IMG/VR virus record: IMGVR_UViG_3300049216_000067
DNA length: 64,000 nucleotides
Reading direction: 5' to 3' (one strand)
Origin: a virus
Under the pieces are notes generated by a model. That model did no database searches. It was not told where the DNA came from and saw only the letters and a program-made list of their open reading frames with translations. The position numbers and the translations under genes are program-made. Shown here in pieces: positions 5,852 through 60,188 of this stretch. The first letter of the stretch is position 1. Each line of letters starts with the position of its first letter.

Positions 5852-6300
5852 TATTGTCCCCTTATAAATTTTTCCCAAGCCATGTATTCACGTAGCTGGA
5901 ACGTCCTTGAATTAAGCTCTTTACAAACAGCCGTACAAAATGAAATGGCTTCTTCGTTAGCAATCATATTTTTCTTCAGATCGATCAAATCTTGATCAGC
6001 GTCAAGATAGGCACTTAGATCTGGTTTGTTTACCAGTGCTGGAAAAGCTTTCCAACCTTTTTCTTTAAGAACATCAGTGCCGTTCAAACGCCCTGAATAG
6101 TATTCGACTTTCAATTTCTTCAATTGATCAAAGTCAAATTTCTTCATTTTAAGAGAAACGGAGTGAGCCGTTATTTGAGTCACGTATTTAGAATGCAGAA
6201 CAGGAATTCTTACGATTTCTAGTTGTGGATCTGTAGTATTAATGACTGAATCGGCTTGCCATTCTTCTAATAGTTTTTCTAATGATATGCATTTCATCAA
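5851..6300 (-). CDS. uvsY: Recombination mediator
   Basis: W-x-x-DS-x-I, IPVLHSKY, EYYSG and RTFQLR...WEKF motifs; upstream of uvsW. Confidence 0.9.
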   Translation of the reverse strand: MMKCISLEKLLEEWQADSVINTTDPQLEIVRIPVLHSKYVTQITAHSVSLKMKKFDFDQLKKLKVEYYSGRLNGTDVLKEKGWKAFPALVNKPDLSAYLDADQDLIDLKKNMIANEEAISFCTAVCKELNSRTFQLREYMAWEKFIRGQ

Positions 6301-35195: not shown

Positions 35196-35882
35196 TTATG
35201 CGATTGGATCGGTTATTACAAGTTCAAATTCGTCATCAACAGGACGCAACATGATATTAGAACTGCCTAAATCATTGCAGAAACCCCTGTTCTTTTGCAA
35301 AAGACGCGAAATACTTTTACAAGCCTCACGTAATTCCAAGTTGTTAATCACAGTGTCTATTTTGTCAGTACGAATTGCTTCTCGAAGATAGGTAACTATT
35401 TGATGGATAATTTCCCAAGATGTCAACGACTGTGTATCCGTGACCTGTACACCCCAAGGTTCAGGCATCTTGAAATTAATAAATGAATCATGTGCTATGG
35501 CTGTTAACTGTTGGATGGACGCATCTCTCATTTCGACAAGCCTTTCCATAACGACACCGTAAACAATGACAGGTTGGTTTGTTTTATACCTGATAAAATT
35601 TTCAACTTTAGGAAAAAATCGGTTATTTTTCATCGTCACCACCATTTCTAGAAACGTATGATAACCGTCTCGGTCTAAACTTGGAGACTGACAAATCTTT
35701 AACACTTTATCACTGTCACCGATTTGGTAAACAGAACCATAAGAACCAGAGGCAATTTTTTGAGAACAACCGTTTGCATTCACTAAAGTTTTAATAAAAT
35801 CGTGGCAATCCTGATTGACCGGCAACGGATGATGATAGTAATCAAACTGATCACTGTTTCTTAGGTCAAGTGCAGCATTCAT
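35196..35882 (-). CDS. Protein kinase-like enzyme (T7 gp0.7-type)
   Basis: IASGSYGSVY, VLKI, VMERL, DLGSSNIM and VITDP. Confidence 0.75.
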   Translation of the reverse strand: MNAALDLRNSDQFDYYHHPLPVNQDCHDFIKTLVNANGCSQKIASGSYGSVYQIGDSDKVLKICQSPSLDRDGYHTFLEMVVTMKNNRFFPKVENFIRYKTNQPVIVYGVVMERLVEMRDASIQQLTAIAHDSFINFKMPEPWGVQVTDTQSLTSWEIIHQIVTYLREAIRTDKIDTVINNLELREACKSISRLLQKNRGFCNDLGSSNIMLRPVDDEFELVITDPIA

Positions 35883-42564: not shown

Positions 42565-43421
42565 TACTGTTCCTCCTATACAACTAGGATCACTTTAATC
42601 TTAAAGAATTAAGATGTCAAGCAAGATGCGCAGCGCAAATCCAGCAACGATCAAAATTGCAACACCAAACAGAAATGCGTCTAGATCATTCATATGGCTA
42701 ACGTTCCATTGACATCTAGAATTTTCTTGTCAATCTCGGCAATCTTCTGCTCGATTTCATCTAGAACACTTTCAACCCTAATAAGACCGATTTCTGAATC
42801 GTGGATCAATGTGTACCTACCATTGTCGATAACATTGTTAATTTTATTAATGGTATTGGTCATAGATATGGCTCCAACTTCCATATATCTGGAATGTGTA
42901 TAATCATGAAGTTCGAGTATTTTGTGTTCAATTAAATAATACATTGTTCTGTATCCTCAGTTTGTTTAGATACTTCTATCATAGCAGAAAGATCTTTAAT
43001 ATTCATATTTGATGTTCCACGATTGACAATTTGTGATGTTCAAGATGACAAGATCTGCATAACCACTTGACTGTATGAGGATCGTTATAATCTTCGTGAT
43101 GTGCTTGACTCTTTGGGTCATCACACATCTCACAGGCTTTCTTAATAATATGGCCACGTTTTAATAAGCCATCTAAATCACCGTGTTCTTATTACGGTCC
43201 TATTATCCCAGCGAACCTTTTAAGACTCAAAATTTTATTTTTAATTTTTTGAAACGGACTTATTAAGAAACGTGCAGCAGCGAACCTTTAAGAACAATCC
43301 TATTAAAATTTTTAAAATTAAAGAGAGCAACTAACGAAGGTACCCCGAACAGAGAGTAGAAGCCACTCCCCGGATGGGACCCAGAAACACTGTATTTTTG
43401 ACATAATAGGATTGGACATAT

Positions 43422-43564
43422 GCTCAGCACATGTGACATATGCTGTCGCATGGCTCAGCACATGTGACATATGCTGTCGCATGGCTCAGCACATGTGACA
43501 TATGCTGTCGCATGGCTCAGCACATGTGACATATGCTGTCGCATGGCTCAGCACATGTGACATA
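43422..43564. repeat. Perfect 31-bp tandem repeat, about 4.6 copies
   Basis: Unit GCTCAGCACATGTGACATATGCTGTCGCATG at 43422, 43453, 43484, 43515 and a partial copy at 43546. Confidence 0.97.
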
Positions 43565-43630
43565 AGAGTCAAGTATTAAAACTGTGACACAGTAAGCACT
43601 AATAGCACTCCATTACAATGCATTATGGTT

Positions 43631-44194
43631 AATAGGAACTTGTCCGGACGGACATAGGGCTTGACAATACGATATTGTGACGCACAGCACAGAATAGTTC
43701 CTATTAGGTGGGCTAATAAGACTGTCTAATGTAACATATTGTGTTTCTCACACTTGACACGCGACTGTCAATCATTAATAGGACATAACATAGCTGTGTG
43801 CTGATAACGTGATGCACATCACAGATTATACAAATAGGAACTTGTCCGGACGGACATGGGGCTTGACATTATAAAAGTGTGAACCAGCGCACAGTAACGG
43901 CCTACGGCACGTAGGGATTAGTCCTATTAGTGCGCTCGGTGGACACTGCCTCAGTATGAAATTAATTAATAATAAGGCATAATAGCATGAATAGAATTCA
44001 TGTCGTTATTCGTTTGGGCTAGACTAGCTTCTATATCAAAGGGTTAATAGCAATAGGACAGCATAAGACGCTATTAGAGCCGATCTAATAGGAAAGGTAA
44101 TAAAGGGGCAGGGATAGACTGAAAGCCGCTATAAAGCGATCCTATTAGAATCAAATTGAACATAATCTTAATAGGAACTTGTCCGGACGGACAT
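43631..44194 (+). repeat. Three exact 25-bp direct repeats AATAGGAACTTGTCCGGACGGACAT
   Basis: At 43631-43655, 43833-43857 and 44170-44194. Confidence 0.95.
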
Positions 44195-44215
44195 AGGATT
44201 GTGGGGGGGGGACAC

Positions 44216-44241
44216 AAAAAAGCCCTGACTGGCAGGGCTTT
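44216..44241 (-). terminator. Intrinsic terminator at the left end of the island
   Basis: AAAGCCCTG-CCAGT-CAGGGCTTTTT. Confidence 0.75.
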
Positions 44242-44296
44242 GGTTAAGACTCACGGACGTTTCGTCTGTGATAAGACTCACGGCAGAGAGGGTTTC

Positions 44297-44617
44297 TTAG
44301 CGGTCAAACTCCATGAAACCGACACTAGCCACGACATAGGACCGATAGCCGGTCTCGGTCTCGATGATGAGGATATCGCCGACACTGGTAGAGCGTGCCC
44401 ATTCCATACCGTGGTCACGCGAACCAAAGAAGTTAACACCCATGTTTTCCCACCATAGTGATTCAATCGTGTTAGTCAGTTCGTATGCCTTGCTGAGCGA
44501 ATCAGTCTCAACGGTAGCCACAAGCTTGTAGTCGCGCATAATCGTGGTGACTGAGGCGCGAAAGTCTTTCGGGACTACGAAAGTCTGGTTATTGGCATGC
44601 CAGACTTGAATTGACAT
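44297..44617 (-). CDS. YodL-like domain protein
   Basis: YKLVATV...AYELTN...RSTSVGDI...YVVASVGF; likely start MSIQ after AGGAG. Confidence 0.65.
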   Translation of the reverse strand: MSIQVWHANNQTFVVPKDFRASVTTIMRDYKLVATVETDSLSKAYELTNTIESLWWENMGVNFFGSRDHGMEWARSTSVGDILIIETETGYRSYVVASVGFMEFDR

Positions 44618-44676: not shown

Positions 44677-45598
44677 TCATGAATGCGACTCCAGGCTATC
44701 AATCGCATAGTCCGCGTTCATGCTCTCAGCCAATTCGATTGCCTCAAAATCATAGAATTCCTGAGAGCCTATCACCGCGTTAGTGAGTTCACTCCAAACG
44801 ACAAATTTGCCGTCGCCTACGGAGCGAACCTGATACGGACCATTTAGTCTTTTGTTGCCCATGCTCTGTATCTCCTTTGATGAATCGACCTAATAGGATC
44901 ATGCAAGGGGCATGCCAATAGCAAACAAAACAATCAGGGCGCTAATAGGATCATTCTACTAGCGTGACCCTGACAAATTTTGTCAGTCTGTGACGGTTTC
45001 AGCCCTTTAGCGTCGATAGCTGCCAGTGTCGGTGACAGCAACGTAACAGGCGACGATTGCGGCAAACATTAAGAACATTGACATATGGTGTACTCCTTTT
45101 TAGACAGTTTTGGACAATGAAACAATGTCAGTATCGTTTGACACTACATCGACGCGGCTTAAACCCGTGTAAAGAAATTTTTCCTTAATAATACGGTTCA
45201 TTGCGCGGATTGCAGCGTTGCGCGTCGATGCCTCAATGCAAACAATGATGTTCCCGCTTGCATCGTAGCCAATGGCATCATAAGTCTCGGTAGAGTCATA
45301 ATCGCCTGACATATGGTGTACTCCTTTAAGTGAGAGTGATTTAACTTAATAGCTATTCGCGCCCATAGTCCCAGTCACCATGTTGCATCGCGTCTGCGGC
45401 ATCTGCCTCGCCCTCGCGATAGGCGTCGATAATATCCCGGACGGCAATCTCCGGACTGCAATTGTACGAATTGACATACTCGCACGCTTCCATAAACAGG
45501 GTTTCCATGTCCAAGTGATCCGGAAGCAACGCATCTTTAATGATGAGCATGATTGCCGCGTTTCGCGCTTGTATCGACTGGTATACCGTGTCCGACAT
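44677..45598 (-). CDS. Small early-type ORFs (44677-44862; 45007-45084; 45100-45312; 45353-45598)
   Basis: Strong AAGGAG RBSs; leader AAAGGAGTACACCATATGTCA duplicated before two of them. Confidence 0.65.
44902..44918 (-). promoter_or_regulatory. sigma54 (-24/-12) promoter P1
   Basis: TTGGCATGCCCCTTGCA; TGACA-AATTT-TGTCA at 44971-44985. Confidence 0.8.
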
Positions 45599-45637
45599 GC
45601 TTTGTACTCCTTTGGAATTGATCCGTAGCTAGGATCA

Positions 45638-45654
45638 TGCAAGGGGCATGCCAA
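45638..45654 (-). promoter_or_regulatory. sigma54 promoter P2
   Basis: TTGGCATGCCCCTTGCA; TGACG-TAAAT-TGTCA at 45705-45719. Confidence 0.8.
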
Positions 45655-45800
45655 TTCAATCAGGGCACTAATAGGACGATTCTACCCCGCAATGTGACGC
45701 AAAGTGACGTAAATTGTCAGTCGATTGACAATCAGGGGCACATTTTAACAAGTCGGCTCGTTAAATCTTTCAATCAGCGGTCTAGTAGCCCTTGTTTTAG

Positions 45801-45817
45801 TTGGCACGATGTGTGCA
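45801..45817 (+). promoter_or_regulatory. sigma54 promoter P3 (divergent from P2)
   Basis: TTGGCACGATGTGTGCA, about 40 bp before the DUF932 ATG. Confidence 0.75.
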
Positions 45818-45858
45818 TAATCCTAATCGTCAGTCATTTCAAACAAGGAGATTCAAAC

Positions 45859-46914
45859 ATGTCACATCAGATTGCTAATCAAGCCAATGGTCAAGCTGCT
45901 GCGGTATTCAGTGCCTTAGAGGGCGCTGGCTGGACAGGTCTCGGTCAAGAGATTCCGGCAGACATGGCCAATGATCCCCGCGCCATTGCCAAATTGTGCG
46001 GCGCTAACTTCACTGTTGAAAAACGAGAATGCTACTTTAAGAGTGCTGAAGGCACCTATAAGGCCGCGCGCGGAAAGGATGTGTTAGTCCGCACCGATAC
46101 GGATCGCATGCTGAGTGTCGTGTCCGACAATCGCTATCATGTCACTAATCGTCAGCCTGTCGATATCTTCGAAGCTTTCCGCGACGAACTGGCACAGAAT
46201 AATCTGACAATCTCGCATGGTGCCGTGCTCCGAGGTGGCGCTGATATCGTCGTTTGCGCCTTGCTTCCCTCAGAGTTTGATATCGTGGTAGGCAACGGTG
46301 ACCGAATCAAGCAATACGTCACCGCTAGCACGGGCTACAATGGCCACGGCACGCGCGTCACTAAGTCAGGCTATCGCGTCGTGTGCGCTAACACGCATGC
46401 CGCGAACATTGCGGATGCTGAGGCAAAGGATAAAATCCGCACCATTCGCGCTAGCACGCAATTGGAGCGCGATTCTATCGCTAACCTGATTGTCGATGTG
46501 AAAAAGCTTGTGGACGCAGAGCGCGCGACCTTCGATGCCATGGCCAATACTCGCATGTCTAACGAAGATGTAGCGCGCTACTTCGCGGATGTGCTGGAAT
46601 TCAACATCGCGGATCTGAACCGTACCAATGCGAACGGCAAGAAACTCGTTAGCACTAAAACTCAAAACATCGTGAATCAATTGCTTGCGAGCTATGCGAA
46701 TGCTCCGGGCGCGGACATGGCCATGGGGACCGCATGGGGCGCATTCAACGCGGTGACCTACTACGCGACGCATCTTAAGACTGTGCGCGATACCAGCGGT
46801 TCAGGTGAGTCTGCGGCTCGCGTCGCGTCTAACCTGAATGGGGACGCGGCTCAAATGAAATTGCGTGCCTTGCAGCTAGCGGCAAGCTACTCGGATATCG
46901 CAGTAGCCGCGTAA
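45859..46914 (+). CDS. DUF932 / TIGR03299-family phage-plasmid protein, copy A
   Basis: WTGLG, LVRTDT, LRGG, RVVCANT and GTAWGAFNAVT motifs; start MSHQI after AAGGAG. Confidence 0.85.
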   Translation: MSHQIANQANGQAAAVFSALEGAGWTGLGQEIPADMANDPRAIAKLCGANFTVEKRECYFKSAEGTYKAARGKDVLVRTDTDRMLSVVSDNRYHVTNRQPVDIFEAFRDELAQNNLTISHGAVLRGGADIVVCALLPSEFDIVVGNGDRIKQYVTASTGYNGHGTRVTKSGYRVVCANTHAANIADAEAKDKIRTIRASTQLERDSIANLIVDVKKLVDAERATFDAMANTRMSNEDVARYFADVLEFNIADLNRTNANGKKLVSTKTQNIVNQLLASYANAPGADMAMGTAWGAFNAVTYYATHLKTVRDTSGSGESAARVASNLNGDAAQMKLRALQLAASYSDIAVAA

Positions 46915-46922
46915 TGACTCAC

Positions 46923-46954
46923 GGCGCGGGGACCGTGAAACCCGCGCCCTTTTC
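46923..46954 (+). terminator. Intrinsic terminator
   Basis: GGCGCGGG-N10-CCCGCGCC-CTTTT. Confidence 0.8.
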
Positions 46955-47039
46955 TTAAAGTGTGAAGTCTGACACGCATTTTAAGGAAAGGGTTTAATAG
47001 AATTCTCTTAACACGCAACGGACACAAGGAGATATTAAT

Positions 47040-48004
47040 ATGTTAAACATCAAGGGCGCTTTCGTGGTCATCAAACAGTCTGGCGTCGAGCCGGTCATCC
47101 TTGGCGAGCGCCAGTATGTCGGCTATATGGAGCGCGTGACGATTGTAGGCTTTGACAAGGCTAACCATTTCGTATTCGGGGCCGGTACGATTGCCGCGTT
47201 GCCTTGCACGCAAGCGTGCATGGAATCCGTAGCCCTGAACTATGCCGATACCGAGAAGCACGGCAAAATGGTCAAGGCAATCTGTGCGCGCATTGCGCTC
47301 GGTATGCCGCTAGGCAACGGCAAGGATATCGGGGAGGGTGGCTTGGGCATCAAGTCGCCTGTAGACGCGCCTAAGTCGCCTAATGGCGGTTCGCGCGTCT
47401 CGGTCCCCGATTCAATCAACGCCTAACCCAAGGAGAATATTATGGAAAATAAACTAGTCAAGGAATTGCGAGACATCTCATATGAGATAGACGGTATTGC
47501 CGCTGACTTAGCGGCAGGGGATATCGACCCAGCAAAAGCCGCTGAAACCCTGGCGAACGTTGCCATGGGCTTGCGCATTGGATTGAATGCACTCACACGC
47601 TCGGTTCCTGACTTAAACAACGCCTAACGAAAGGAGCATATATTATGTCAACTAACGCTACCCTCGAATTTGTCGATTCAAACAAGTGTAAGTGTTATGT
47701 CTATAAACACTGGGACGGCTCTCCTAGCGGAATCAAAGAGGCAATCTTCAAGGCTCTTCGCTTTTCGTGGCTATTGCCCCGCTTTGAGGCGGATGAATTC
47801 GCGGCATCATTCATTGCGGCTAACAAGGTCGGACCCGGAGATGTCCGCGTGATAGGCAAACTGAAAGACTATTCTGGCGACTATCATTATGCCATATCGC
47901 ATTCTGTGGATATTTGGATTAAGGCATATTCACTCGATTTTAAAGACGGCAAACGCACCTTGATTTATGACGGCAGTTTCCGCGAATGGAATCCGATAGA
48001 CTGA
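47040..48004 (+). CDS. Three hypothetical ORFs (47040-47426; 47442-47627; 47645-48004 with a YKHWDGSP motif)
   Basis: Each has an AAGGAG RBS; the AACGCCTAAC gene end is repeated. Confidence 0.7.
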
Positions 48005-48098
48005 CAATTAGTGTCACATTGTGACGGCACATTGTGACACTTTTAAACATCGAGCAATTGAAACTGGCCTACTAGACCGACGATTGAATGATTTAGAC

Positions 48099-48115
48099 TT
48101 GGCACGCCGATTGCA
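48099..48115 (+). promoter_or_regulatory. sigma54 promoter P4
   Basis: TTGGCACGCCGATTGCA (near-consensus); TGACA-ATTAG-TGTCA at 48002-48016. Confidence 0.85.
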
Positions 48116-48153
48116 TACTCTTAGTCAGTAGTAACGAATTGGGGGATTAACGA

Positions 48154-48909
48154 ATGAATATGAATGGCGCGATTATCTATAAAGGACCGAGTTTGCTAGA
48201 CGGCTCTCCGATTGTCGTTATCGCTAGTGGCCTAGCCGCTAAGTCATCTAATCGTAAGACTGGGGACATGGTTCAGACTTACATTCTACGCGCCGACATG
48301 GAGCCGACTACGGCAGTTAAATCAGGCGCTGATAGTTCAATCTGCGGCGCATGTCCGCATCGCGGCATCGCGCACGGCGACCATAACGAAGGTCGGACAT
48401 GCTATGTCAATGTCGGTCAAGGCCCTTTGCAGATTTATCGCGGCTTTGTTCGCGGCATTTATCCGACTGTAGACGCCGACAAGCTTGCTTATATCGGCGC
48501 TGGGCGCAATGTGCGGCTCGGTACGTATGGTGATCCTGCGGCAGTGCCTACGCATGTTTGGGAAACCCTTGTTTCGAAGTCTGAGGGGCATACCGGCTAC
48601 ACGCATCAATGGCGCAATGCTCCGACGTTACGCACACTGTGCATGGCCAGCGCCGACAGTGAGGCAGATGCCATTGAGGCGCATGCTAGTGGCTGGCGTA
48701 CCTTTCGCGTTGCCTTGCCTTGTGATGCACCTAAGCTTGCGTCTGAAGTAGTCTGTCCTGCCAGTGCTGAGGCAGGTAAGAAGCTTGCTTGTGCCGAATG
48801 TCTCGCGTGCTGCGGCGCTGACGGTAGGAAAGGCTCGATTGTGATTCAGGCACATGGCGGTTTTGCTGTCATGTCCAACATTAAGAAACGTTCAGAATTG
48901 AACATCTAA
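48154..48909 (+). CDS. Cys-rich, GP88/radical-SAM-like phage protein
   Basis: NRKTG, ICGACPH...CYV, RLGTYGDP, GYTHQW, CPA...CAECLAC. Confidence 0.55.
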   Translation: MNMNGAIIYKGPSLLDGSPIVVIASGLAAKSSNRKTGDMVQTYILRADMEPTTAVKSGADSSICGACPHRGIAHGDHNEGRTCYVNVGQGPLQIYRGFVRGIYPTVDADKLAYIGAGRNVRLGTYGDPAAVPTHVWETLVSKSEGHTGYTHQWRNAPTLRTLCMASADSEADAIEAHASGWRTFRVALPCDAPKLASEVVCPASAEAGKKLACAECLACCGADGRKGSIVIQAHGGFAVMSNIKKRSELNI

Positions 48910-48952
48910 AGTTTAATTAACCCTCAATTGTAACTCACAAGGAGATTATATT

Positions 48953-49312
48953 ATGTACAATCTTAACTCTAATCGTCGTTGGAAGCGTGTCATTGCCGTC
49001 AATCAGATGCACACTTGTAATCGTGCTGCGCGTCGTGCTGCGGCTCGGATTCAAGCCGCATTGACTCCTAATGGTCCTGCCCCTACTGCCGATAGCCCTA
49101 GCGTGGCCACGGTTCAGCGTGTCTATTCGCGCCCCTATGTTGGTATCAATCCGGACGGTTTCTATGTCATGTTTCGCGCCAAGTCTGTACCGGAGGGTTA
49201 CACTGCCGTTATGGGTCCGTTTAAGACTACGCGAGCCGCACAGTATGCGCTCGATAATCCGGATGTTATTAGCGTTGCAGTCGCGGAGCGCATGTCTAAA
49301 GAGTCGGTTTAA
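48953..49312 (+). CDS. Hypothetical basic protein
   Basis: AAGGAG RBS; intact ORF. Confidence 0.65.
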   Translation: MYNLNSNRRWKRVIAVNQMHTCNRAARRAAARIQAALTPNGPAPTADSPSVATVQRVYSRPYVGINPDGFYVMFRAKSVPEGYTAVMGPFKTTRAAQYALDNPDVISVAVAERMSKESV

Positions 49313-49332
49313 TAAGACTCTAAACGACAAAT

Positions 49333-49368
49333 GCCCCGGAGAGCAATTCTCCGGGGCTTTCTCTTTTA
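49333..49368. terminator. Terminator between convergent genes
   Basis: GCCCCGGAGA-GCAAT-TCTCCGGGGC-TTTCTCTTTT. Confidence 0.85.
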
Positions 49369-49377
49369 CCCTTTGGG

Positions 49378-50310
49378 TTATGCGGCCTCGCGTTGTTTTA
49401 CCTTGCTAGGTCGCGTAGCGTAGCTTAGAGCTAGATCTAATGCTCTCACTTTCAATCGATTCGCATCTCCGTTCAGGTTACTAGCTGCGCGTGCTGTCTC
49501 GGTTCCGGAGCCTGTAGTATCTCGCACTGTCTTGAGATGCGTTGCATAATAGGCGACTGCCTGCAATGCGCCCCAGACTGTACCTTTAGCTAAATCGGCT
49601 CCTGGCGCATTCACATAAGACTGAGTAATAGCTTTCAATATGTTCTCAGTCTTAGTACTCACTAGCTTTGATCCTGCCTTGACTTTTCCGATATCTGCCG
49701 GATCTACATCGAGCACACTGGAAAAGTATTTTGTTATATCCTTGTTTGGCATCTCGGTATCAAATAGCAGTTTGAATGTTTGCGCCTCATCTTTAATTTG
49801 TGCCTTAATGTTTTTCATGATTTCAGGCACAGTCGATTCATCGATGCTAGTGCTAAGCGTAGCTCCCGATACCGTTCGGATTAGCCCTTTCGTCGCTCGG
49901 CTCTTATGCTTCGAATTGTAGTCCATGGTAACTACAAGAAACGACTTTATTAAATCTCCTTTGCCTACTGTGATATCGTATTCACTCGGCAATTCAGCAC
50001 AGACTGTGATTAGAGACCCGCCTTTAATTGCCGTACCGTAAGCAATCTTTAGATCGAAGTCCGCTAGATCCGTCTGTAATGCGGAAAAAATGGTATCCGG
50101 ACGGACTAGCACATCTCTACCTGGCGCTTTAGAATAGGTGCCATCAGGGTTTTTGAAAAATACCGGACGTCTTTCTACCTGAAATGATGCGCCTACCATA
50201 TCGGCAATCTTGCTTGGATTGCCTTGGATATCGGCAGGTATTACCTTTCCCATGCCATCCACATATTGACTATTTTGCGACAGCATCGCAGTAACGATTG
50301 ACTTAGACAT
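49378..50310 (-). CDS. DUF932-family paralog, copy B (diverged)
   Basis: Aligns with copy A throughout, e.g. YYATHLKTVRDT and ASNLNGDA. Confidence 0.85.
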   Translation of the reverse strand: MSKSIVTAMLSQNSQYVDGMGKVIPADIQGNPSKIADMVGASFQVERRPVFFKNPDGTYSKAPGRDVLVRPDTIFSALQTDLADFDLKIAYGTAIKGGSLITVCAELPSEYDITVGKGDLIKSFLVVTMDYNSKHKSRATKGLIRTVSGATLSTSIDESTVPEIMKNIKAQIKDEAQTFKLLFDTEMPNKDITKYFSSVLDVDPADIGKVKAGSKLVSTKTENILKAITQSYVNAPGADLAKGTVWGALQAVAYYATHLKTVRDTTGSGTETARAASNLNGDANRLKVRALDLALSYATRPSKVKQREAA

Positions 50311-50446
50311 AATATACTCCTTAAGTTAGTTGAAAATATTTCAAATCGAATCAGTCAAAACACGCTTGCACATTAAGGGGAATCGGTATCCGTTTTCTGT
50401 GCGGTACCGTACATATGATTAATATTTTTGAATGCAAGCAATATCG

Positions 50447-50627
50447 ACGGTACCTTCATATATCTAATCAGGTAAACGAATTAGGAGGAAATCATGGCAG
50501 CTTACTTTGCAACGGGTGCAATACATCGATTGGTTATCTTAAAGAAGATGTAAATTTTTATGCTTTCTCTTTCCCATGCCATCCACATATTGACTATTTT
50601 TTGCGACAGCATCGCAGTAACGATTGA
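50447..50627 (+). pseudogene. Mosaic remnant: decayed P6 copy, EndoVII-like fragment and a copy of the DUF932-B 5' end
   Basis: 50447-50487 matches 51169-51210; LLCNGCNTSIGYLKED; 50569-50627 matches 50245-50301. Confidence 0.7.
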
Positions 50628-50673
50628 AGGGCCGCAGATGCGGCCCTGTCTATGATCTACTTCACAGTTTCAA

Positions 50674-50976
50674 TTAGTCGTCAAGACCTTCCGGACGCGG
50701 CAACTGCGGATGTTTTGTATAAAACGACTTAATAGGACGCAGTGCGATTTTGAGACATTCCGCTGCTGTCACTTCGGATATGGTATTCGGTCCCTTAATC
50801 AATTGCATAAGCTTTTGTGCTGCCTGTACCGGCGCTTTCCAATATGCCCAACCATCCGAATTGTTATTCACTATATCCTTATGGTTAATAAGGATTCGGA
50901 TCGCTTTACGTTTCACACTGTCACGGCTAGCGCGATGAAAAGCATTATCGATATCATAGTCATTCATGTAAAGCAT
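50674..50976 (-). CDS. Hypothetical protein
   Basis: NSDGWAYWKAPVQAAQKL motif; driven by P5. Confidence 0.7.
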   Translation of the reverse strand: MLYMNDYDIDNAFHRASRDSVKRKAIRILINHKDIVNNNSDGWAYWKAPVQAAQKLMQLIKGPNTISEVTAAECLKIALRPIKSFYTKHPQLPRPEGLDD

Positions 50977-51008
50977 TGGTTTCTCCTAGTTACTGATAAT
51001 AGGATAGA

Positions 51009-51025
51009 TGCAAGGGGCATGCCAA
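51009..51025 (-). promoter_or_regulatory. sigma54 promoter P5
   Basis: TTGGCATGCCCCTTGCA; TGACA-ATTTG-TGTCA at 51065-51079. Confidence 0.8.
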
Positions 51026-51163
51026 GTCAATTGAGTGCCTGAAACGAGGATTTTGTGGTCAAAGTGACAATTTGTGTCACATAGTGACTAACACTTTGCG
51101 TCACATATTGACCATACCCTAATTGAAATTGCTCTATTAAGCCCCTGGCTGTAGAATTCGGAG

Positions 51164-51180
51164 TTGGCACGGTACCTGCA
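51164..51180 (+). promoter_or_regulatory. sigma54 promoter P6 (divergent from P5)
   Basis: TTGGCACGGTACCTGCA, upstream of the plus-strand operon. Confidence 0.75.
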
Positions 51181-51216
51181 TATACTAATCAGGTAAAACG
51201 AATTTAGGAGACACTA

Positions 51217-53814
51217 ATGAAATTCGACAAATCTCAATTCCAGTATTCTAGCAAGTACCTGACTTATGGTCCGGATCGCAAGTTCGTGGCTCGATTCAAG
51301 TACGGCTCAAAGGCATCGTTTCAGGCGTTTCTAATCAAGAATTTCACGGTTGAAGAGTACTTCAGCCTGCTTGAAACGGTGAAGGATGACGCTAGCCGTC
51401 GCACGTATGCGCCGCTGGAAGTTCTTGAACTGAAGGGTTATCTCAGTGACAATTGCAAGCGTGCTTGCCGTCTCGCTGGTTTCCCTCAGACTCGGGAAGG
51501 TTTTCAGGCTCTCATTCAGTCACAAATTACGGCTCGGCAATAGGAGGTTTCAATCATGGCTCAATTCAAACTCATTCAAGAAGCTGTGTTGCGTAACAGT
51601 CTCGATTGCGAATTGGATCGCGTCGAGTTGCGCATGCACGGTGGCGAATATCTCATGCCTCAGGATGTTATTCGCTGGTTCAAGAATCTCTGCGTCGGTG
51701 ATACCATCACGATTGAAGAGCGCGAAACGGAGGTAGAATAAATGAGTAACTCTTGTTTATTGCTGGTCGCTATCATAGGATGCGCTATGACTGGGCACTG
51801 GTTGCTGGTCTTGGTTTTCGCGCTTCTTTTCATGGGTTGTCGTAAGGAGAAAATCTAATGCACGGCTATTCAATTATTCCTGATATCCTTGTGATCCTGT
51901 TTCTGCTGGCTCTTGAGGATAGCTTTCGCAAGAAGTCTAAGCCGGTCGATAAGACTGAGACTGTGACTCCCGTTAAGCCCAAGTCTCGGTTTTGGTATTA
52001 CCAGGATCGCACTGGCAAGGTTCACACGGAGATTCGGCAATGAATACTAAGACAGCTGTCTATCATGGCATGTGTGATCGTTATCACAAGTACATCGACA
52101 CGGTAGGAATTGTGTATTTCTTGTTGGATCTGCCGCGAGATGCACAAGGAAATTATATTCCTGTCGGTACCACCGTGACTTTAACATACTGTTTTACTAG
52201 CAGCTATGGTAACTGGTTTCCCTCACTGGAGGTTCAGAAATGAAACGTGCCAGCTACAAACGGGCTATTGAATTCGTTGCAAATGAAGATAGTGCGGGCG
52301 ACGGCAATGCTCTCGATGCTAATGAAGTGCAATGGTTAATTACTGCGGTTCTTGTTGCTGATATTTTCGATGTACCAAACGAAAAAGTCGGCAAGGATAT
52401 CGTGGCTTATCGCAAGAAGCATCATGAAAGACATCGCTAGTATTGCTGAGGCACGCGAGCGCAAAGAGTTTATTAAACGATTAATTGAAGCTGCCAACAA
52501 AGCGAACGCATTGCGGTTTTCTCGATGGCAAGCAATAGCAAATAGGAGTAAAAGACAATGAAAATTAAATGGAAAGTTCAACCGGCTCCGACTGGTCGCT
52601 ATCGTTCATTCGAGCGACGCGGTTGGCCTAGTGGCACGATCAATGACGAGGCAGTTGCTTTTCTTCGATGTGAACATGATTACACGGCAAAGCTTGCTAA
52701 GGGTGAACCTACTTTCGATGGCACTCCACCTGTCATTAGTGTCTGGGTCGCAGATTGGACCGCTCATAATACCGGTACTCGCACGAAAAACGATACGGCT
52801 TTTGTGTGGCGTTGTCTTAAGGCTCGATTCAGTAACGTGGCTGATGCGAAAGCGGCTGCTCAAAGTTTCTTGGATTCGCATCCGAATTTTCTTCCCAATA
52901 TCCCTAAGAAGGAGTCAACCATTGAAGGTTTCTCGAATTAAAGAAGTTCGTTCTATTACAGGCTTTGGTTTGAAAGAAGCCAAAGACATGGTAGAATGTC
53001 AGTCTTTCATAGACGCGATAAAATAGGAGAAAGAAATGCCCGCATTTAGAATCGTTGCCAATAAGACTTACGCATCTGAAGCCAATGCGATCAAGGCAGC
53101 TGAAGCGAAGTTTGGCGAACAGAATCTACGCTATTTCATCATGACCGAGAAGGATGAAATAACGTATACCACTCGTTATTTTCCTGTTTTCGTCGGTGAG
53201 GCAGCTATACGTGCTGGCGTACATTTTCATTTCAACGTGATTGGATAAGGAGTAAACATGAACGAGTCTATTGATTACGGTGATATCGATTATGAGGACA
53301 AGGAAACAACTGAGTCGGTGCCGGGTGAAGTATCTGTCACTGAGACGATTCTTGTTTATGTTCCTGGCGCTGTCGGTGGCAAATGGGTTACATCCGATCC
53401 TGATGACGATGACCAGGAGTCAGTTACATTTAGCAAGGATATTCATCTTGCATTCGAGTTTACTGATATCGAGCATGCGAAACGTTCGAAGTATTTGATT
53501 GAAACGGAATTCAATATTGAGTCTCTTGTCATGGTGGAATCGAAATGATTACTAAAAAGCGTCAAATGTTGGCTGTGCCTCAGATTAACATCAACGGCAC
53601 ATCGAGAGGCGAGTTGCAAATGCAATGTCGTGAAGTTTACGATGCCCTGATTGAGGCTCAAAAGGCTCTGATGCGTATGACGCCGCATGGTCGCGACTAT
53701 CAAACCATCGGCTTTGAAACGTATGAGTTGGCTCGGTCTCAACATTTAGATAGAGTTCGGTCTATTGAACATCTTTTAGAGGAAATTCACGAAATAAGCG
53801 TGAGCCTATTGTAA
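51217..53814 (+). other. Operon of about 12 small hypothetical ORFs
   Basis: Abutting plus-strand ORFs (51217, 51556, 51858, 52040, 52240, 52558, 53036, 53258, 53545 and others) with RBSs. Confidence 0.7.
52922..53026 (+). CDS. 34-aa ribosomal protein bL12 C-terminal-domain-like peptide
   Basis: AAGGAG RBS then TTG; KVSRIKEVRSITGFGLKEAKDMVE. Confidence 0.6.
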   Translation: MKVSRIKEVRSITGFGLKEAKDMVECQSFIDAIK

Positions 53815-59685: not shown

Positions 59686-60188
59686 TATTTATTTATAGAA
59701 TCATCTATAATTTCTCTCGATTCAGCTTCAATAACTTGATTTTGTTGTGTTGATTTTACCATATCTAACAACTCTTTTGTGGTGCCGACAAATACAGCAT
59801 TTTGAATTTGCACATTGGAACCTGGAACTGCACCACCCCTATTACGTGCAAGATTGACAGCATTGTTTTGAACTGTCTGGTGATCGGCATGAATCTTCAA
59901 TAGCTTATCGGCCATGATTGCATTGCCATTAATCATCTGAGCAAGGACTTCATAATGACGAGCAGACATAGACTCTTTAGCAACGCGCATAAGTTCTACG
60001 ATGCTCTCGTTGCTTTTATTGATCATGTCGTAAAGGGTTTCACGAGCAAATTCTGCATCGTTATTGGCTTTCGTTTCAGGAGGTAGGCTAGCAGCTACTG
60101 TTTTCTTCAATTCAATATCCGACTTAACTTGGTCGGCTGCTAATATCACTCCAAGTGCTGAGGCAAGTGGACTATCTGTATCTGTCAT
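59685..60188 (-). CDS. gp16: Terminase small subunit
   Basis: DAEFARETL, ARHYEVLAQM and NAVFVGTTKEL. Confidence 0.9.
   Translation of the reverse strand: MTDTDSPLASALGVILAADQVKSDIELKKTVAASLPPETKANNDAEFARETLYDMINKSNESIVELMRVAKESMSARHYEVLAQMINGNAIMADKLLKIHADHQTVQNNAVNLARNRGGAVPGSNVQIQNAVFVGTTKELLDMVKSTQQNQVIEAESREIIDDSINK

What the first reader, a model, noticed from the sequence alone, without database searches (positions are those of the whole stretch)
44890..51216. Six sigma-54 promoters with a shared enhancer palindrome drive an island in a T4-like phage
Seen in sequence: six -24/-12 motifs. TTGGCATGCCCCTTGCA occurs three times on the minus strand (44902, 45638, 51009). TTGGCACG-N4-(G/T/C)TGCA occurs three times on the plus strand (45801, 48099, 51164). 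Each sits about 30-45 bp before an RBS-led ATG and points into it, and two pairs are divergent. Every promoter has a TGAC(A/G)-N5-TGTCA palindrome upstream (44971, 45705, 48002, 51065), flanked by extra TGAC/GTCA half-sites. The palindrome centre lies 89-92 bp from the plus-strand motifs and 47-60 bp from the minus-strand motifs. Established: sigma54 holoenzyme needs an AAA+ enhancer-binding protein, whereas T4 uses sigma70 early, MotA/AsiA middle and gp55 late promoters. Inference: this is a fourth, activator-gated transcription class that makes these genes conditional on host state. No GAFTGA-type activator is encoded in the window, so the activator is probably host-derived. TGTC-containing arrays with a TTGGCA(T/C)G promoter recall PilR-controlled pilA promoters, which would tie expression to piliated cells. 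That link is a hypothesis from recall.
Basis: partly seen in the sequence, partly recalled or inferred. Interest (0 to 1): 0.92.

Follow-up and report, generated by a model that had tools for sequence, protein, structure and literature searches.

The report
Phage promoters copying the pilin switch
An uncultured T4-like phage puts about 25 accessory genes behind six sigma-54 promoters whose upstream sites match the control region of bacterial type IV pilin genes, so it probably needs the host's pilus regulator PilR to switch them on, a wiring found in over 100 other phage contigs and in no paper I could find.

Summary
Six TGGCAYG-N5-TGCA motifs are the only ones in 64 kb (0.14 expected). Each points into an RBS-led ATG 32-41 nt away. 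Each has TGACR-N5-TGTCA palindromes plus phased half-sites upstream, and two enhancers are shared by divergent promoters.

The window is a T4-like myovirus at 42% GC. The promoters lie in a 47-54% GC accessory island that the closest 167-kb relative lacks. No enhancer-binding protein (EBP) is encoded in the window.

In bacterial genomes, two such palindromes followed by TGGCACG-N5-TGC lie directly upstream of a type IV pilin gene at 74 of 91 sites. Two loci checked have the order pilS-pilR-cassette-pilA.

The same cassette occurs in at least 119 IMG/VR phage stretches, against 16 for a reversed control, almost never with a phage EBP gene.

Best reading: host sigma-54 plus host PilR drive this island. 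Binding, rpoN dependence and start sites remain untested.

Sigma-54 phage promoters are known from phage YuA, which lacks these sites. Earlier notes of this scan reached the PilR reading on other phages.

The parts
44902..44918 (-). P1: sigma-54-type promoter TTGGCATGccccTTGCA. The predicted start is near 44891. It drives 44677-44862 and 44297-44617, which end at the terminator at 44219-44241.
44965..44995 (.). Enhancer 1: palindrome TGACAAATTTTGTCA flanked by the half-sites TGACC and TGACG at steps of about 10 bp.
45638..45654 (-). P2: the same 17-mer as P1. It drives 45353-45598, 45100-45312 and a 25-codon membrane-peptide gene at 45008-45085.
   Evidence: The 25-aa peptide is kept in the relative L286.
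45695..45730 (.). Enhancer 2, shared by the divergent promoters P2 and P3: half-sites at 45695, 45705, 45715 and 45726, including the palindrome TGACGTAAATTGTCA.
   Evidence: The palindrome is identical in L286.
45801..45817 (+). P3: TTGGCACGatgtGTGCA. It drives the DUF932 gene at 45859-46914, which is followed by a hairpin and T-run at about 46917-46955.
47040..48004 (+). Three small genes (47040-47426, 47442-47627, 47645-48004) with no sigma-54 motif of their own. They lie between the P3 terminator and enhancer 3, and their promoter is unknown.
48002..48039 (.). Enhancer 3: palindrome TGACAATTAGTGTCA followed by two TGTGAC half-sites.
48099..48115 (+). P4: TTGGCACGccgaTTGCA, a perfect match to the consensus. 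It drives 48154-48909 (phrog_2554 / DUF7227-like) and 48953-49312, ending at the terminator at 49333-49357.
   Evidence: A homologous gene in the unrelated phage contig L041 sits behind the same cassette.
49378..50310 (-). Second DUF932 gene, a paralog of 45859-46914. It has no sigma-54 motif upstream.
   Evidence: (I1)
50415..50640 (.). Recombination scar: a degenerate copy of P6 and its leader, with GG and GC lost, plus a duplicated 5' end of gene 49378-50310.
   Evidence: D11, D14
51009..51025 (-). P5: TTGGCATGccccTTGCA. It drives 50674-50976 (phrog_22197), which is followed by a hairpin near 50630-50650.
51057..51113 (.). Enhancer 4, shared by the divergent promoters P5 and P6: palindrome TGACAATTTGTGTCA plus four more half-sites, within a 24-bp repeat of 1.9 copies.
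51164..51180 (+). P6: TTGGCACGgtacCTGCA. It heads a run of about 12 small plus-strand genes at 51217-53814.
43422..43564 (.). Tandem array of 4.6 copies of a 31-bp unit. Each unit holds TGACATATGCTGTCG, one mismatch from the enhancer palindrome, and no sigma-54 motif lies nearby. It may be an extra set of sites for the same protein; its role is unknown.

Best explanation
The six motifs are working sigma-54 (RpoN) promoters of an accessory island at about 44.3-53.8 kb in a T4-like phage. Host RNA polymerase carrying sigma-54 binds the -24/-12 elements. It stays closed until an AAA+ activator bound to the TGACR-N5-TGTCA arrays, 55-100 bp upstream, opens the complex. The arrays copy the enhancer of bacterial type IV pilin (pilA) promoters, so the activator is most likely the host response regulator PilR, which is phosphorylated by the kinase PilS. 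The island's roughly 25 genes (two DUF932 genes, one DUF7227-like gene and many small ORFans) would then be expressed only in cells with an active pilin switch.

Shown here: the sequence anatomy, its non-random nature, its match to pilA control regions, its spread among phages, and the lack of a phage activator gene in the DNA that could be searched.

Inferred: sigma-54 and PilR dependence, the start sites, and the biological pay-off.
For: (1) Six near-consensus sites are confined to 6.3 kb, and 0 of 100 shuffles reach that number. All point into an RBS-led ATG 32-41 nt downstream.

(2) Selection shows in the pattern of change. The three plus-strand promoters share little beyond the TTGGCACG and TGCATA blocks (D10). 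The roughly 92% identical fragment L286 changes the P2 spacer from CCCC to GTGT but keeps GG, GC and the palindrome. The degenerate copy at 50415-50640 has lost GG and GC and heads only a remnant.

(3) Palindromes and half-sites at 10-bp steps lie upstream of every promoter.

(4) In one genome per species of bacteria, two palindromes followed by TGGCACG-N5-TGC gave 90 loci, and 74 of the 91 sites sit directly before a GFTLIELMIV-type pilin gene. Pfam confirms Pilin/N_methyl, and the order pilS, pilR (REC + Sigma54_activat + HTH_8), cassette, pilA in L350 and L394.

(5) A sample chosen without the DNA pattern took 29 pilin loci from 81 genomes of one order. Eighteen have a sigma-54 motif within 320 nt upstream, and 11 also have a perfect palindrome, against about 0.02 expected per region. 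Palindrome-to-promoter distances there are 55-148 nt; in the window they are 55-100 nt.

(6) PilR is the established sigma-54 activator of pilA (PMC6058289).

(7) No EBP was found in the window or in the 98%-complete relative G001. Only 2 of 50 cassette-bearing phage records give a PF00158 match, and both are weak. None of 12 whole phage genomes has GAFTGA.

(8) At least 119 IMG/VR stretches carry the cassette, against 16 for a control with the -24/-12 part reversed. Upstream half-sites average 4.5 per 160 nt, against 0.65 in control DNA 1 kb away.

(9) Precedent: phage YuA has rpoN-dependent promoters (10.1101/2023.10.13.562163; record annotation).
Against: There is no experimental datum for this phage: no start sites, no rpoN or pilR test, and no protein binding.

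The host is unknown, so I cannot show that it has pilSR, rpoN or a pilA promoter of this type.

Only 64 kb of the phage could be read.

The published P. aeruginosa PilR site is quoted as TGT-N11-ACA with GTCT elements. That is not literally this palindrome, so the link to PilR rests on position before pilA rather than on a footprint.

The genome scan used a pattern derived from the phage sites. Its pilin enrichment is striking, but the pattern fixes the core bases.

The window has no IHF consensus between enhancer and promoter, although many other phage cassettes do.

T4-type phages often shut down host transcription, and whether sigma-54 holoenzyme stays available in this infection is unknown.
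Confidence: 0.66

Rival explanations
1. The promoters are sigma-54 dependent, but the activator is phage-encoded. It would be either a conventional EBP outside the 64-kb window or an unrecognised protein that binds the palindromes.
For: Only part of the genome was readable. The cassette occurs in phages of 33-69% GC, which a phage-borne activator would explain simply. Many island genes have no known family.
Against: The same palindromes precede chromosomal pilA genes in many phyla, so a host protein that reads them already exists. Only 2 of 50 cassette-bearing phage records have a PF00158 match, both weak, and 12 whole phage genomes have no GAFTGA. No protein family is shared by those genomes beyond DNA polymerase A, large terminase and an SNF2 helicase. 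No PilR-like match was found in the window or in G001.
Confidence: 0.12
2. The sites act mainly as decoys. Four enhancers, a 4.6-copy array and six sigma-54 sites, multiplied by phage replication, would soak up PilR and sigma-54 and shut off pilin synthesis, for example to exclude superinfection. Transcription of the island would be secondary.
For: The tandem array at 43422-43564 carries near-palindromes with no sigma-54 promoter nearby. The site density is high. This reading is compatible with the best explanation rather than exclusive of it.
Against: Each promoter sits at a fixed 32-41 nt from an RBS and ATG, and terminators close the units. This argues that transcription is the selected function. 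Most other phages carry only one or two cassettes per genome.
Confidence: 0.1
3. A different host enhancer-binding protein reads the palindromes, for example the activator of a stress or chaperone regulon, as other notes of this scan proposed for Bacteroidota phages.
For: Earlier notes of this scan describe sigma-54 promoters with TGTCA/TGACA sites before heat-shock genes in Bacteroidota. In 10-bp arrays the half-sites can be read in either register. Seventeen of the 91 genome sites are not before pilin genes.
Against: Genes in the window have strong Shine-Dalgarno sites, which are unusual for Bacteroidota (my own knowledge). The exact palindrome TGACR-N5-YGTCA is found overwhelmingly before pilin genes. 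Several of the non-pilin sites look like phage cassettes in binned contigs.
Confidence: 0.08
4. The repeats are mobile intergenic cassettes that serve recombination and gene shuffling in the hyperplastic region, and their sigma-54 look is incidental.
For: P1, P2 and P5 are near-identical over 26-45 nt. The scar at 50415-50640 and the different gene order in L286 show recombination at the cassettes. G001 has a repeated cassette of its own in the same region.
Against: The match to the sigma-54 consensus is exact in spacing and is kept while the spacers change. The same two-part design occurs before pilA genes and in more than 100 unrelated phages. Shuffling and promoter function are not exclusive.
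Confidence: 0.04

Closest known systems
PilS-PilR / sigma-54 control of the type IV major pilin gene pilA (Pseudomonas aeruginosa, Myxococcus xanthus, Geobacter, Lysobacter)
   Same: The design is the same: a -24/-12 promoter close to TGGCACG-N4-TTGCA and several phased TGAC/GTCA sites 55-150 nt upstream. In the genomes searched, the identical palindrome TGACR-N5-YGTCA lies before pilA and next to pilS-pilR.
   Different: Here the cassette is in a virus and drives genes with no relation to pili. Two enhancers serve divergent promoter pairs. The published P. aeruginosa site is written TGT-N11-ACA, not this palindrome.
Sigma-54-dependent promoters of Pseudomonas phage YuA (Ceyssens et al. 2008, as quoted in 10.1101/2023.10.13.562163)
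   Same: A phage uses host sigma-54 for part of its transcription. The YuA record annotates three '-24/-12 consensus' promoters.
   Different: YuA's annotated regions hold neither a TGGCAC-N5-TTGC match nor the palindrome. They lie in the structural and lysis region of a siphovirus, and no activator site is defined.
PeSL-type mobile regulatory cassettes in the hyperplastic regions of T4-type phages (Arbiol et al. 2010; cited from memory, not read here)
   Same: Repeated promoter-bearing intergenic cassettes flank novel ORFs in the variable region of a T4-like genome. Gene order differs between close relatives.
   Different: PeSLs carry sigma-70 early promoters and a stem-loop. These cassettes carry a sigma-54 promoter and an activator enhancer.
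T4 promoter classes: early sigma-70, middle MotA/AsiA, late gp55 with TATAAATA
   Same: The phage backbone is T4-like, and TATAAATA occurs 4 times on the gene strand of the window.
   Different: None of the six sites resembles any of these classes. They would form an added class that depends on a host activator.

Membership tests
Sigma-54 (RpoN) dependent promoter | Conserved GG at -24 and GC at -12 with exact spacing, close to TGGCACG-N4-TTGCW | tested here: met
   Six sites match 11-12 of the 12 consensus bases, and there are no others in 64 kb.
Sigma-54 (RpoN) dependent promoter | Intergenic position, oriented into a gene | tested here: met
   Each site lies 32-41 nt before an RBS-led ATG on the same strand.
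Sigma-54 (RpoN) dependent promoter | Upstream activator (enhancer) sites | tested here: met
   Palindromes plus phased half-sites lie 55-100 nt upstream of all six.
Sigma-54 (RpoN) dependent promoter | Transcription depends on rpoN and starts about 12 nt after the GC | not testable with these tools
   This needs RNA 5'-end mapping and rpoN mutants.
PilR-type (pilA promoter) enhancer | The same site type lies before sigma-54 promoters of type IV pilin genes in bacteria | tested here: met
   74 of 91 pattern matches in genomes precede a pilin gene. In a pilin sample chosen without the pattern, 11 of 29 loci have a sigma-54 motif and a perfect palindrome. The order pilS-pilR-cassette-pilA is confirmed by Pfam.
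PilR-type (pilA promoter) enhancer | Several sites in helical phase | tested here: met
   Half-site starts are 45695/45705/45715/45726 and 48002/48012/48022/48035, with similar steps at the other two enhancers.
PilR-type (pilA promoter) enhancer | PilR protein binds the sites and is required for activity | not testable with these tools
   This needs EMSA or footprinting with PilR and a pilR mutant.
PilR-type (pilA promoter) enhancer | The host encodes pilS, pilR and rpoN | not testable with these tools
   The host is unknown, and no genome is held for the window.
T4 late promoter (gp55, TATAAATA) | TATAAATA at -10 | tested here: not met
   TATAAATA occurs at 59697, 32398, 11899 and 6891 on the minus strand only, and none is at the six sites.
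PeSL-like mobile regulatory cassette | A repeated promoter cassette flanks ORFs of the variable region, with signs of recombination | tested here: inconclusive
   Repeats, a scar and a rearranged relative are present. The promoter type differs, no stem-loop is part of the unit, and the defining paper was not read here.
YuA-type sigma-54 promoters | Sequence likeness to the YuA -24/-12 regions | tested here: not met
   YuA has no consensus match and no palindrome.

The most novel reading that the evidence does not exclude
Hijacking the pilin switch is a widespread, undescribed phage strategy. Phages of many lineages, including T4-like myoviruses and roughly 48-kb phages that place the cassette near the terminase gene, would use host PilR~P and sigma-54 as a ready-made, host-state-dependent activator. 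PilR is active in cells that make pili, and pili are a common phage receptor, so the phage would read out, and perhaps also drain, the regulator of its own entry route.
Probability: 0.5. Interest if true: 0.82.

Novelty: new variant of a known kind. Interest (0 to 1): 0.74.

Why it matters
Phage transcription programmes are usually described as sigma-70 takeover, phage sigma factors or phage RNA polymerases. A promoter class that needs both host sigma-54 and a specific host two-component regulator would make part of a phage's gene set conditional on host physiology. Here the condition would be the state of the type IV pilus system, which many phages use as receptor.

The finding also gives three practical things:
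- a testable host clue for uncultured phages, whose hosts should have pilSR and rpoN;
- a defined enhancer palindrome for PilR across phyla;
- a set of more than 100 natural promoter variants for study.

Tried and rejected
- Megablast of the island against 50,697 phage records found no match.
- An exact 25-mer of P1/P2 was not found in IMG/VR.
The rest of this phage could therefore not be searched for an activator.
- tRNA and Rfam scans of the window found nothing.
- The single motif match in the relative G001 lies inside a gene and is chance.
- L064 has a sigma-54-like motif upstream of its palindromes, inside an ORF, and I left it as unclear.
- The largest protein family shared by cassette-bearing loci is the large terminase, not a regulator. 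The families shared by 12 whole cassette-bearing genomes are DNA polymerase A, terminase and an SNF2 helicase.
- YuA does not share the cassette.
- There is no IHF consensus in the window's promoter regions, so an IHF site I thought I saw by eye was dropped.
- A weak likeness between the product of 44297-44617 and the PilR HTH (33% over 33 aa, no Pfam match) was judged chance.
- Looking for pilA and prophage cassettes together in five MAGs returned only the sites already known.
- Paper searches for PilR-dependent phage promoters found none. PMC12952977, on phage-borne pilins, does not mention PilR or sigma-54.
- Locus L444 (G085, unpublished) was left out of all counts.

Full report
OBSERVATION

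The pattern TGGCAYG-N5-TGCA has six matches in the 64-kb window, all between 44902 and 51180. Three are on each strand. The expected number is 0.14, and none of 100 shuffles reaches six. With GG and GC fixed and at least 10 of 12 consensus bases required, the same six are the only sites. TGACR-N5-TGTCA occurs at 44971, 45705, 48002 and 51065, which is 7 strand-hits against 0.47 expected.

The end of each motif lies 32-41 nt before an RBS-led ATG on the same strand. The palindrome centres lie 89-92 nt from the plus-strand motifs and 47-60 nt from the minus-strand motifs, as stated. Further half-sites follow the palindromes at steps of about 10 bp, for example 45695/45705/45715/45726. P2/P3 and P5/P6 are divergent pairs that each share one enhancer.

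CONTEXT

The window belongs to a T4-like myovirus. It has a gp23-type major head protein (60% identical to those of cyanophages), a scaffold protein, portal, sheath and large terminase. The GC content is 41.9% and nearly all genes are on the minus strand. TATAAATA late-promoter motifs occur four times on that strand.

The promoters lie in a block of 47-54% GC inside the variable region. The closest large relative is G001, a 166,743-bp contig that is 98% complete and shares 85% head-protein identity. It is collinear with the window, but where the window has 44.9-53.8 kb it has only about 3.5 kb of other DNA. G001 and G002 have no such motifs outside coding sequence, and G001 uses a different repeated cassette there.

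The units look like this:
- P1 drives two genes and ends at a terminator (44219-44241).
- P2 drives three genes, including a 25-codon membrane peptide.
- P3 drives a DUF932 gene followed by a terminator.
- P4 drives a DUF7227-like gene (phrog_2554) and one more gene, then a terminator.
- P5 drives one gene.
- P6 drives about 12 small genes.

None of these products has a known function.

SIGNS OF SELECTION AND OF SHUFFLING

P1, P2 and P5 are near-identical over 26-45 nt. P3, P4 and P6 share little beyond the -24 and -12 blocks.

A 1.36-kb IMG/VR fragment, L286, is about 92% identical to the window. It keeps P3, the shared enhancer and P2, but its P2 spacer reads GTGT instead of CCCC while GG, GC and the palindrome are intact. 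In L286, P2 runs straight into the membrane-peptide gene and the homolog of 44297-44617. The window therefore has a duplicated cassette (P1) and three extra genes.

At 50415-50640 a degenerate copy of P6, with GG and GC lost, lies beside a duplicated 5' end of gene 49378-50310. So the cassettes are recombination points as well as promoters.

WHAT THE ENHANCER IS

A homolog of the P4 gene in an unrelated, high-GC temperate phage contig (L041) is preceded by three GTGACGG-N-GTCAC palindromes and TGGCACGgtccCTGCT. This led me to scan whole collections.

A control with the -24/-12 part reversed hit 16. The hits come from contigs of 33-69% GC. Most show two or three palindromes, often an IHF-consensus site, and an ORF that starts about 40-55 nt after the promoter. 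Upstream half-sites average 4.5 per 160 nt, against 0.65 in control DNA 1 kb away. The extended consensus is GTGAC(A/G)-N5(AT-rich)-(T/C)GTCAC. The genes behind the cassette are very diverse. In 43 of 119 loci a large terminase gene lies nearby.

In one genome per bacterial species, two palindromes followed by TGGCACG-N5-TGC gave 90 loci. They come from Burkholderiales, Gammaproteobacteria, Myxococcota, Zetaproteobacteria, Aquificota, Acidobacteriota and other groups. At 74 of the 91 sites the next gene starts with the type IV pilin signature GFTLIELMIV. Pfam confirms Pilin/N_methyl. In L350 and L394 the gene order is pilS (6TM_PilS, HisKA), pilR (REC, Sigma54_activat, HTH_8), cassette, pilA.

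That scan used a pattern taken from phage sites, so I also sampled pilin genes by protein profile alone, in 81 evenly drawn genomes of one order. Of 29 usable loci, 18 have a sigma-54 motif within 320 nt upstream. Eleven of those also have a perfect palindrome, where about 0.02 per region is expected (the unpublished G085 was left out).

PilR is the established sigma-54 activator of pilA (PMC6058289). One caveat remains: the P. aeruginosa site is quoted in papers as TGT-N11-ACA with GTCT elements, not as this palindrome.

WHO SUPPLIES THE ACTIVATOR

The window has no GAFTGA motif and no PilR-like sequence. G001 has no PF00158 match. Among 50 cassette-bearing phage records, 17 of them at least 90% complete, only two give a PF00158 match, and both are weak. 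Twelve whole phage genomes have no GAFTGA and share only DNA polymerase A, terminase and an SNF2 helicase. A host activator is therefore the simplest reading. The rest of this particular phage could not be searched.

MECHANISM PROPOSED

Host sigma-54 holoenzyme sits on the six -24/-12 sites. PilR~P oligomers assembled on the phased sites open the complexes. Predicted starts are near 44891, 45627, 45828, 48126, 50998 and 51191.

Expression would follow PilS-PilR activity. According to PMC6058289 this activity rises when inner-membrane pilin is depleted. As a side effect or a second function, the many sites could drain PilR. These include a 4.6-copy 31-bp array of near-palindromes at 43422-43564 that has no promoter nearby. 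All of this is inference; nothing has been measured.

KNOWN AND NEW

Sigma-54 promoters with enhancers, and PilR control of pilA, are textbook knowledge. A phage that depends on sigma-54 is known: YuA (record annotation). YuA has neither the consensus nor the palindrome.

I found no paper on phage promoters with PilR-type enhancers. PMC12952977 does not mention them.

Earlier notes of this scan reached the same PilR reading on two other large phages, and a different, heat-shock reading on Bacteroidota phages. I treated these notes as leads and tested the PilR claim myself.

I class the finding as a new variant of a known kind.

Noticed in passing
window 43200-44290: A 1.1-kb stretch with no convincing gene. 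It holds the 31-bp tandem array (4.6 copies) and three copies of a 30-nt element with the hairpin TGTCCGGACGGACA (43629, 43831, 44168), each followed by TTGACA in two cases. It also holds many CTAATAGGA motifs in both orientations. It could be an origin, a set of small RNA genes or a protein-binding platform.
   Followed up: partly
window 3626, 19072, 31478, 35891, 41784, 43699, 43922, 44085, 44140, 44890, 44942, 45668: The 9-mer TCCTATTAG occurs 12 times against 0.30 expected, mostly on the gene strand. It often lies directly before an RBS (41784, 31478), over the predicted start of P1 (44890), and between enhancer and promoter of P1 and P2, where TAGAAT precedes it. It may be a phage-specific promoter, a processing site or a regulator site.
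   Followed up: partly
window 50415-50640: A scar made of a degenerate P6 copy and a 57-nt duplicate of the 5' end of gene 49378-50310. It shows recombination at the cassettes.
   Followed up: yes
L286 (IMG/VR fragment, 1361 bp): A close relative of the island (about 92% identical) with a simpler gene order. P2 leads directly to the 25-aa membrane peptide and the homolog of 44297-44617. Its P2 spacer differs while the -24/-12 elements are kept.
   Followed up: yes
L163 10270-10330 and 10640-10700 (G001): The closest large relative has its own repeated intergenic cassette of about 55 nt (…CTCTACGC…CTCGGCGA…AAAGAGC…CAGTTATCGTTT) before genes of the equivalent variable region. Each lineage seems to carry its own promoter cassette.
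   Followed up: no
L180 (IMG/VR contig 3300036862_000066), about 6100-6300: A dense cluster of several TGGCACG-N4-TTGC sites in both orientations, interleaved with palindromes.
   Followed up: no
window 35196-35882 (-): A 228-aa protein with a weak match (E 1.3e-8) to a PHROG annotated as a T7 gp0.7-like protein kinase that inhibits host transcription.
   Followed up: no
window 45859-46914 (+) and 49378-50310 (-): Two diverged DUF932 paralogs face each other across the island (inverted repeat I1, 72% over 113 nt). Only the first has a sigma-54 promoter.
   Followed up: partly
L041, L172, L192, L251: Homologs of the P4 gene (DUF7227-like, phrog_2554) lie in cassette-driven units in four unrelated phage contigs. 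Gene and promoter may sometimes travel together.
   Followed up: partly
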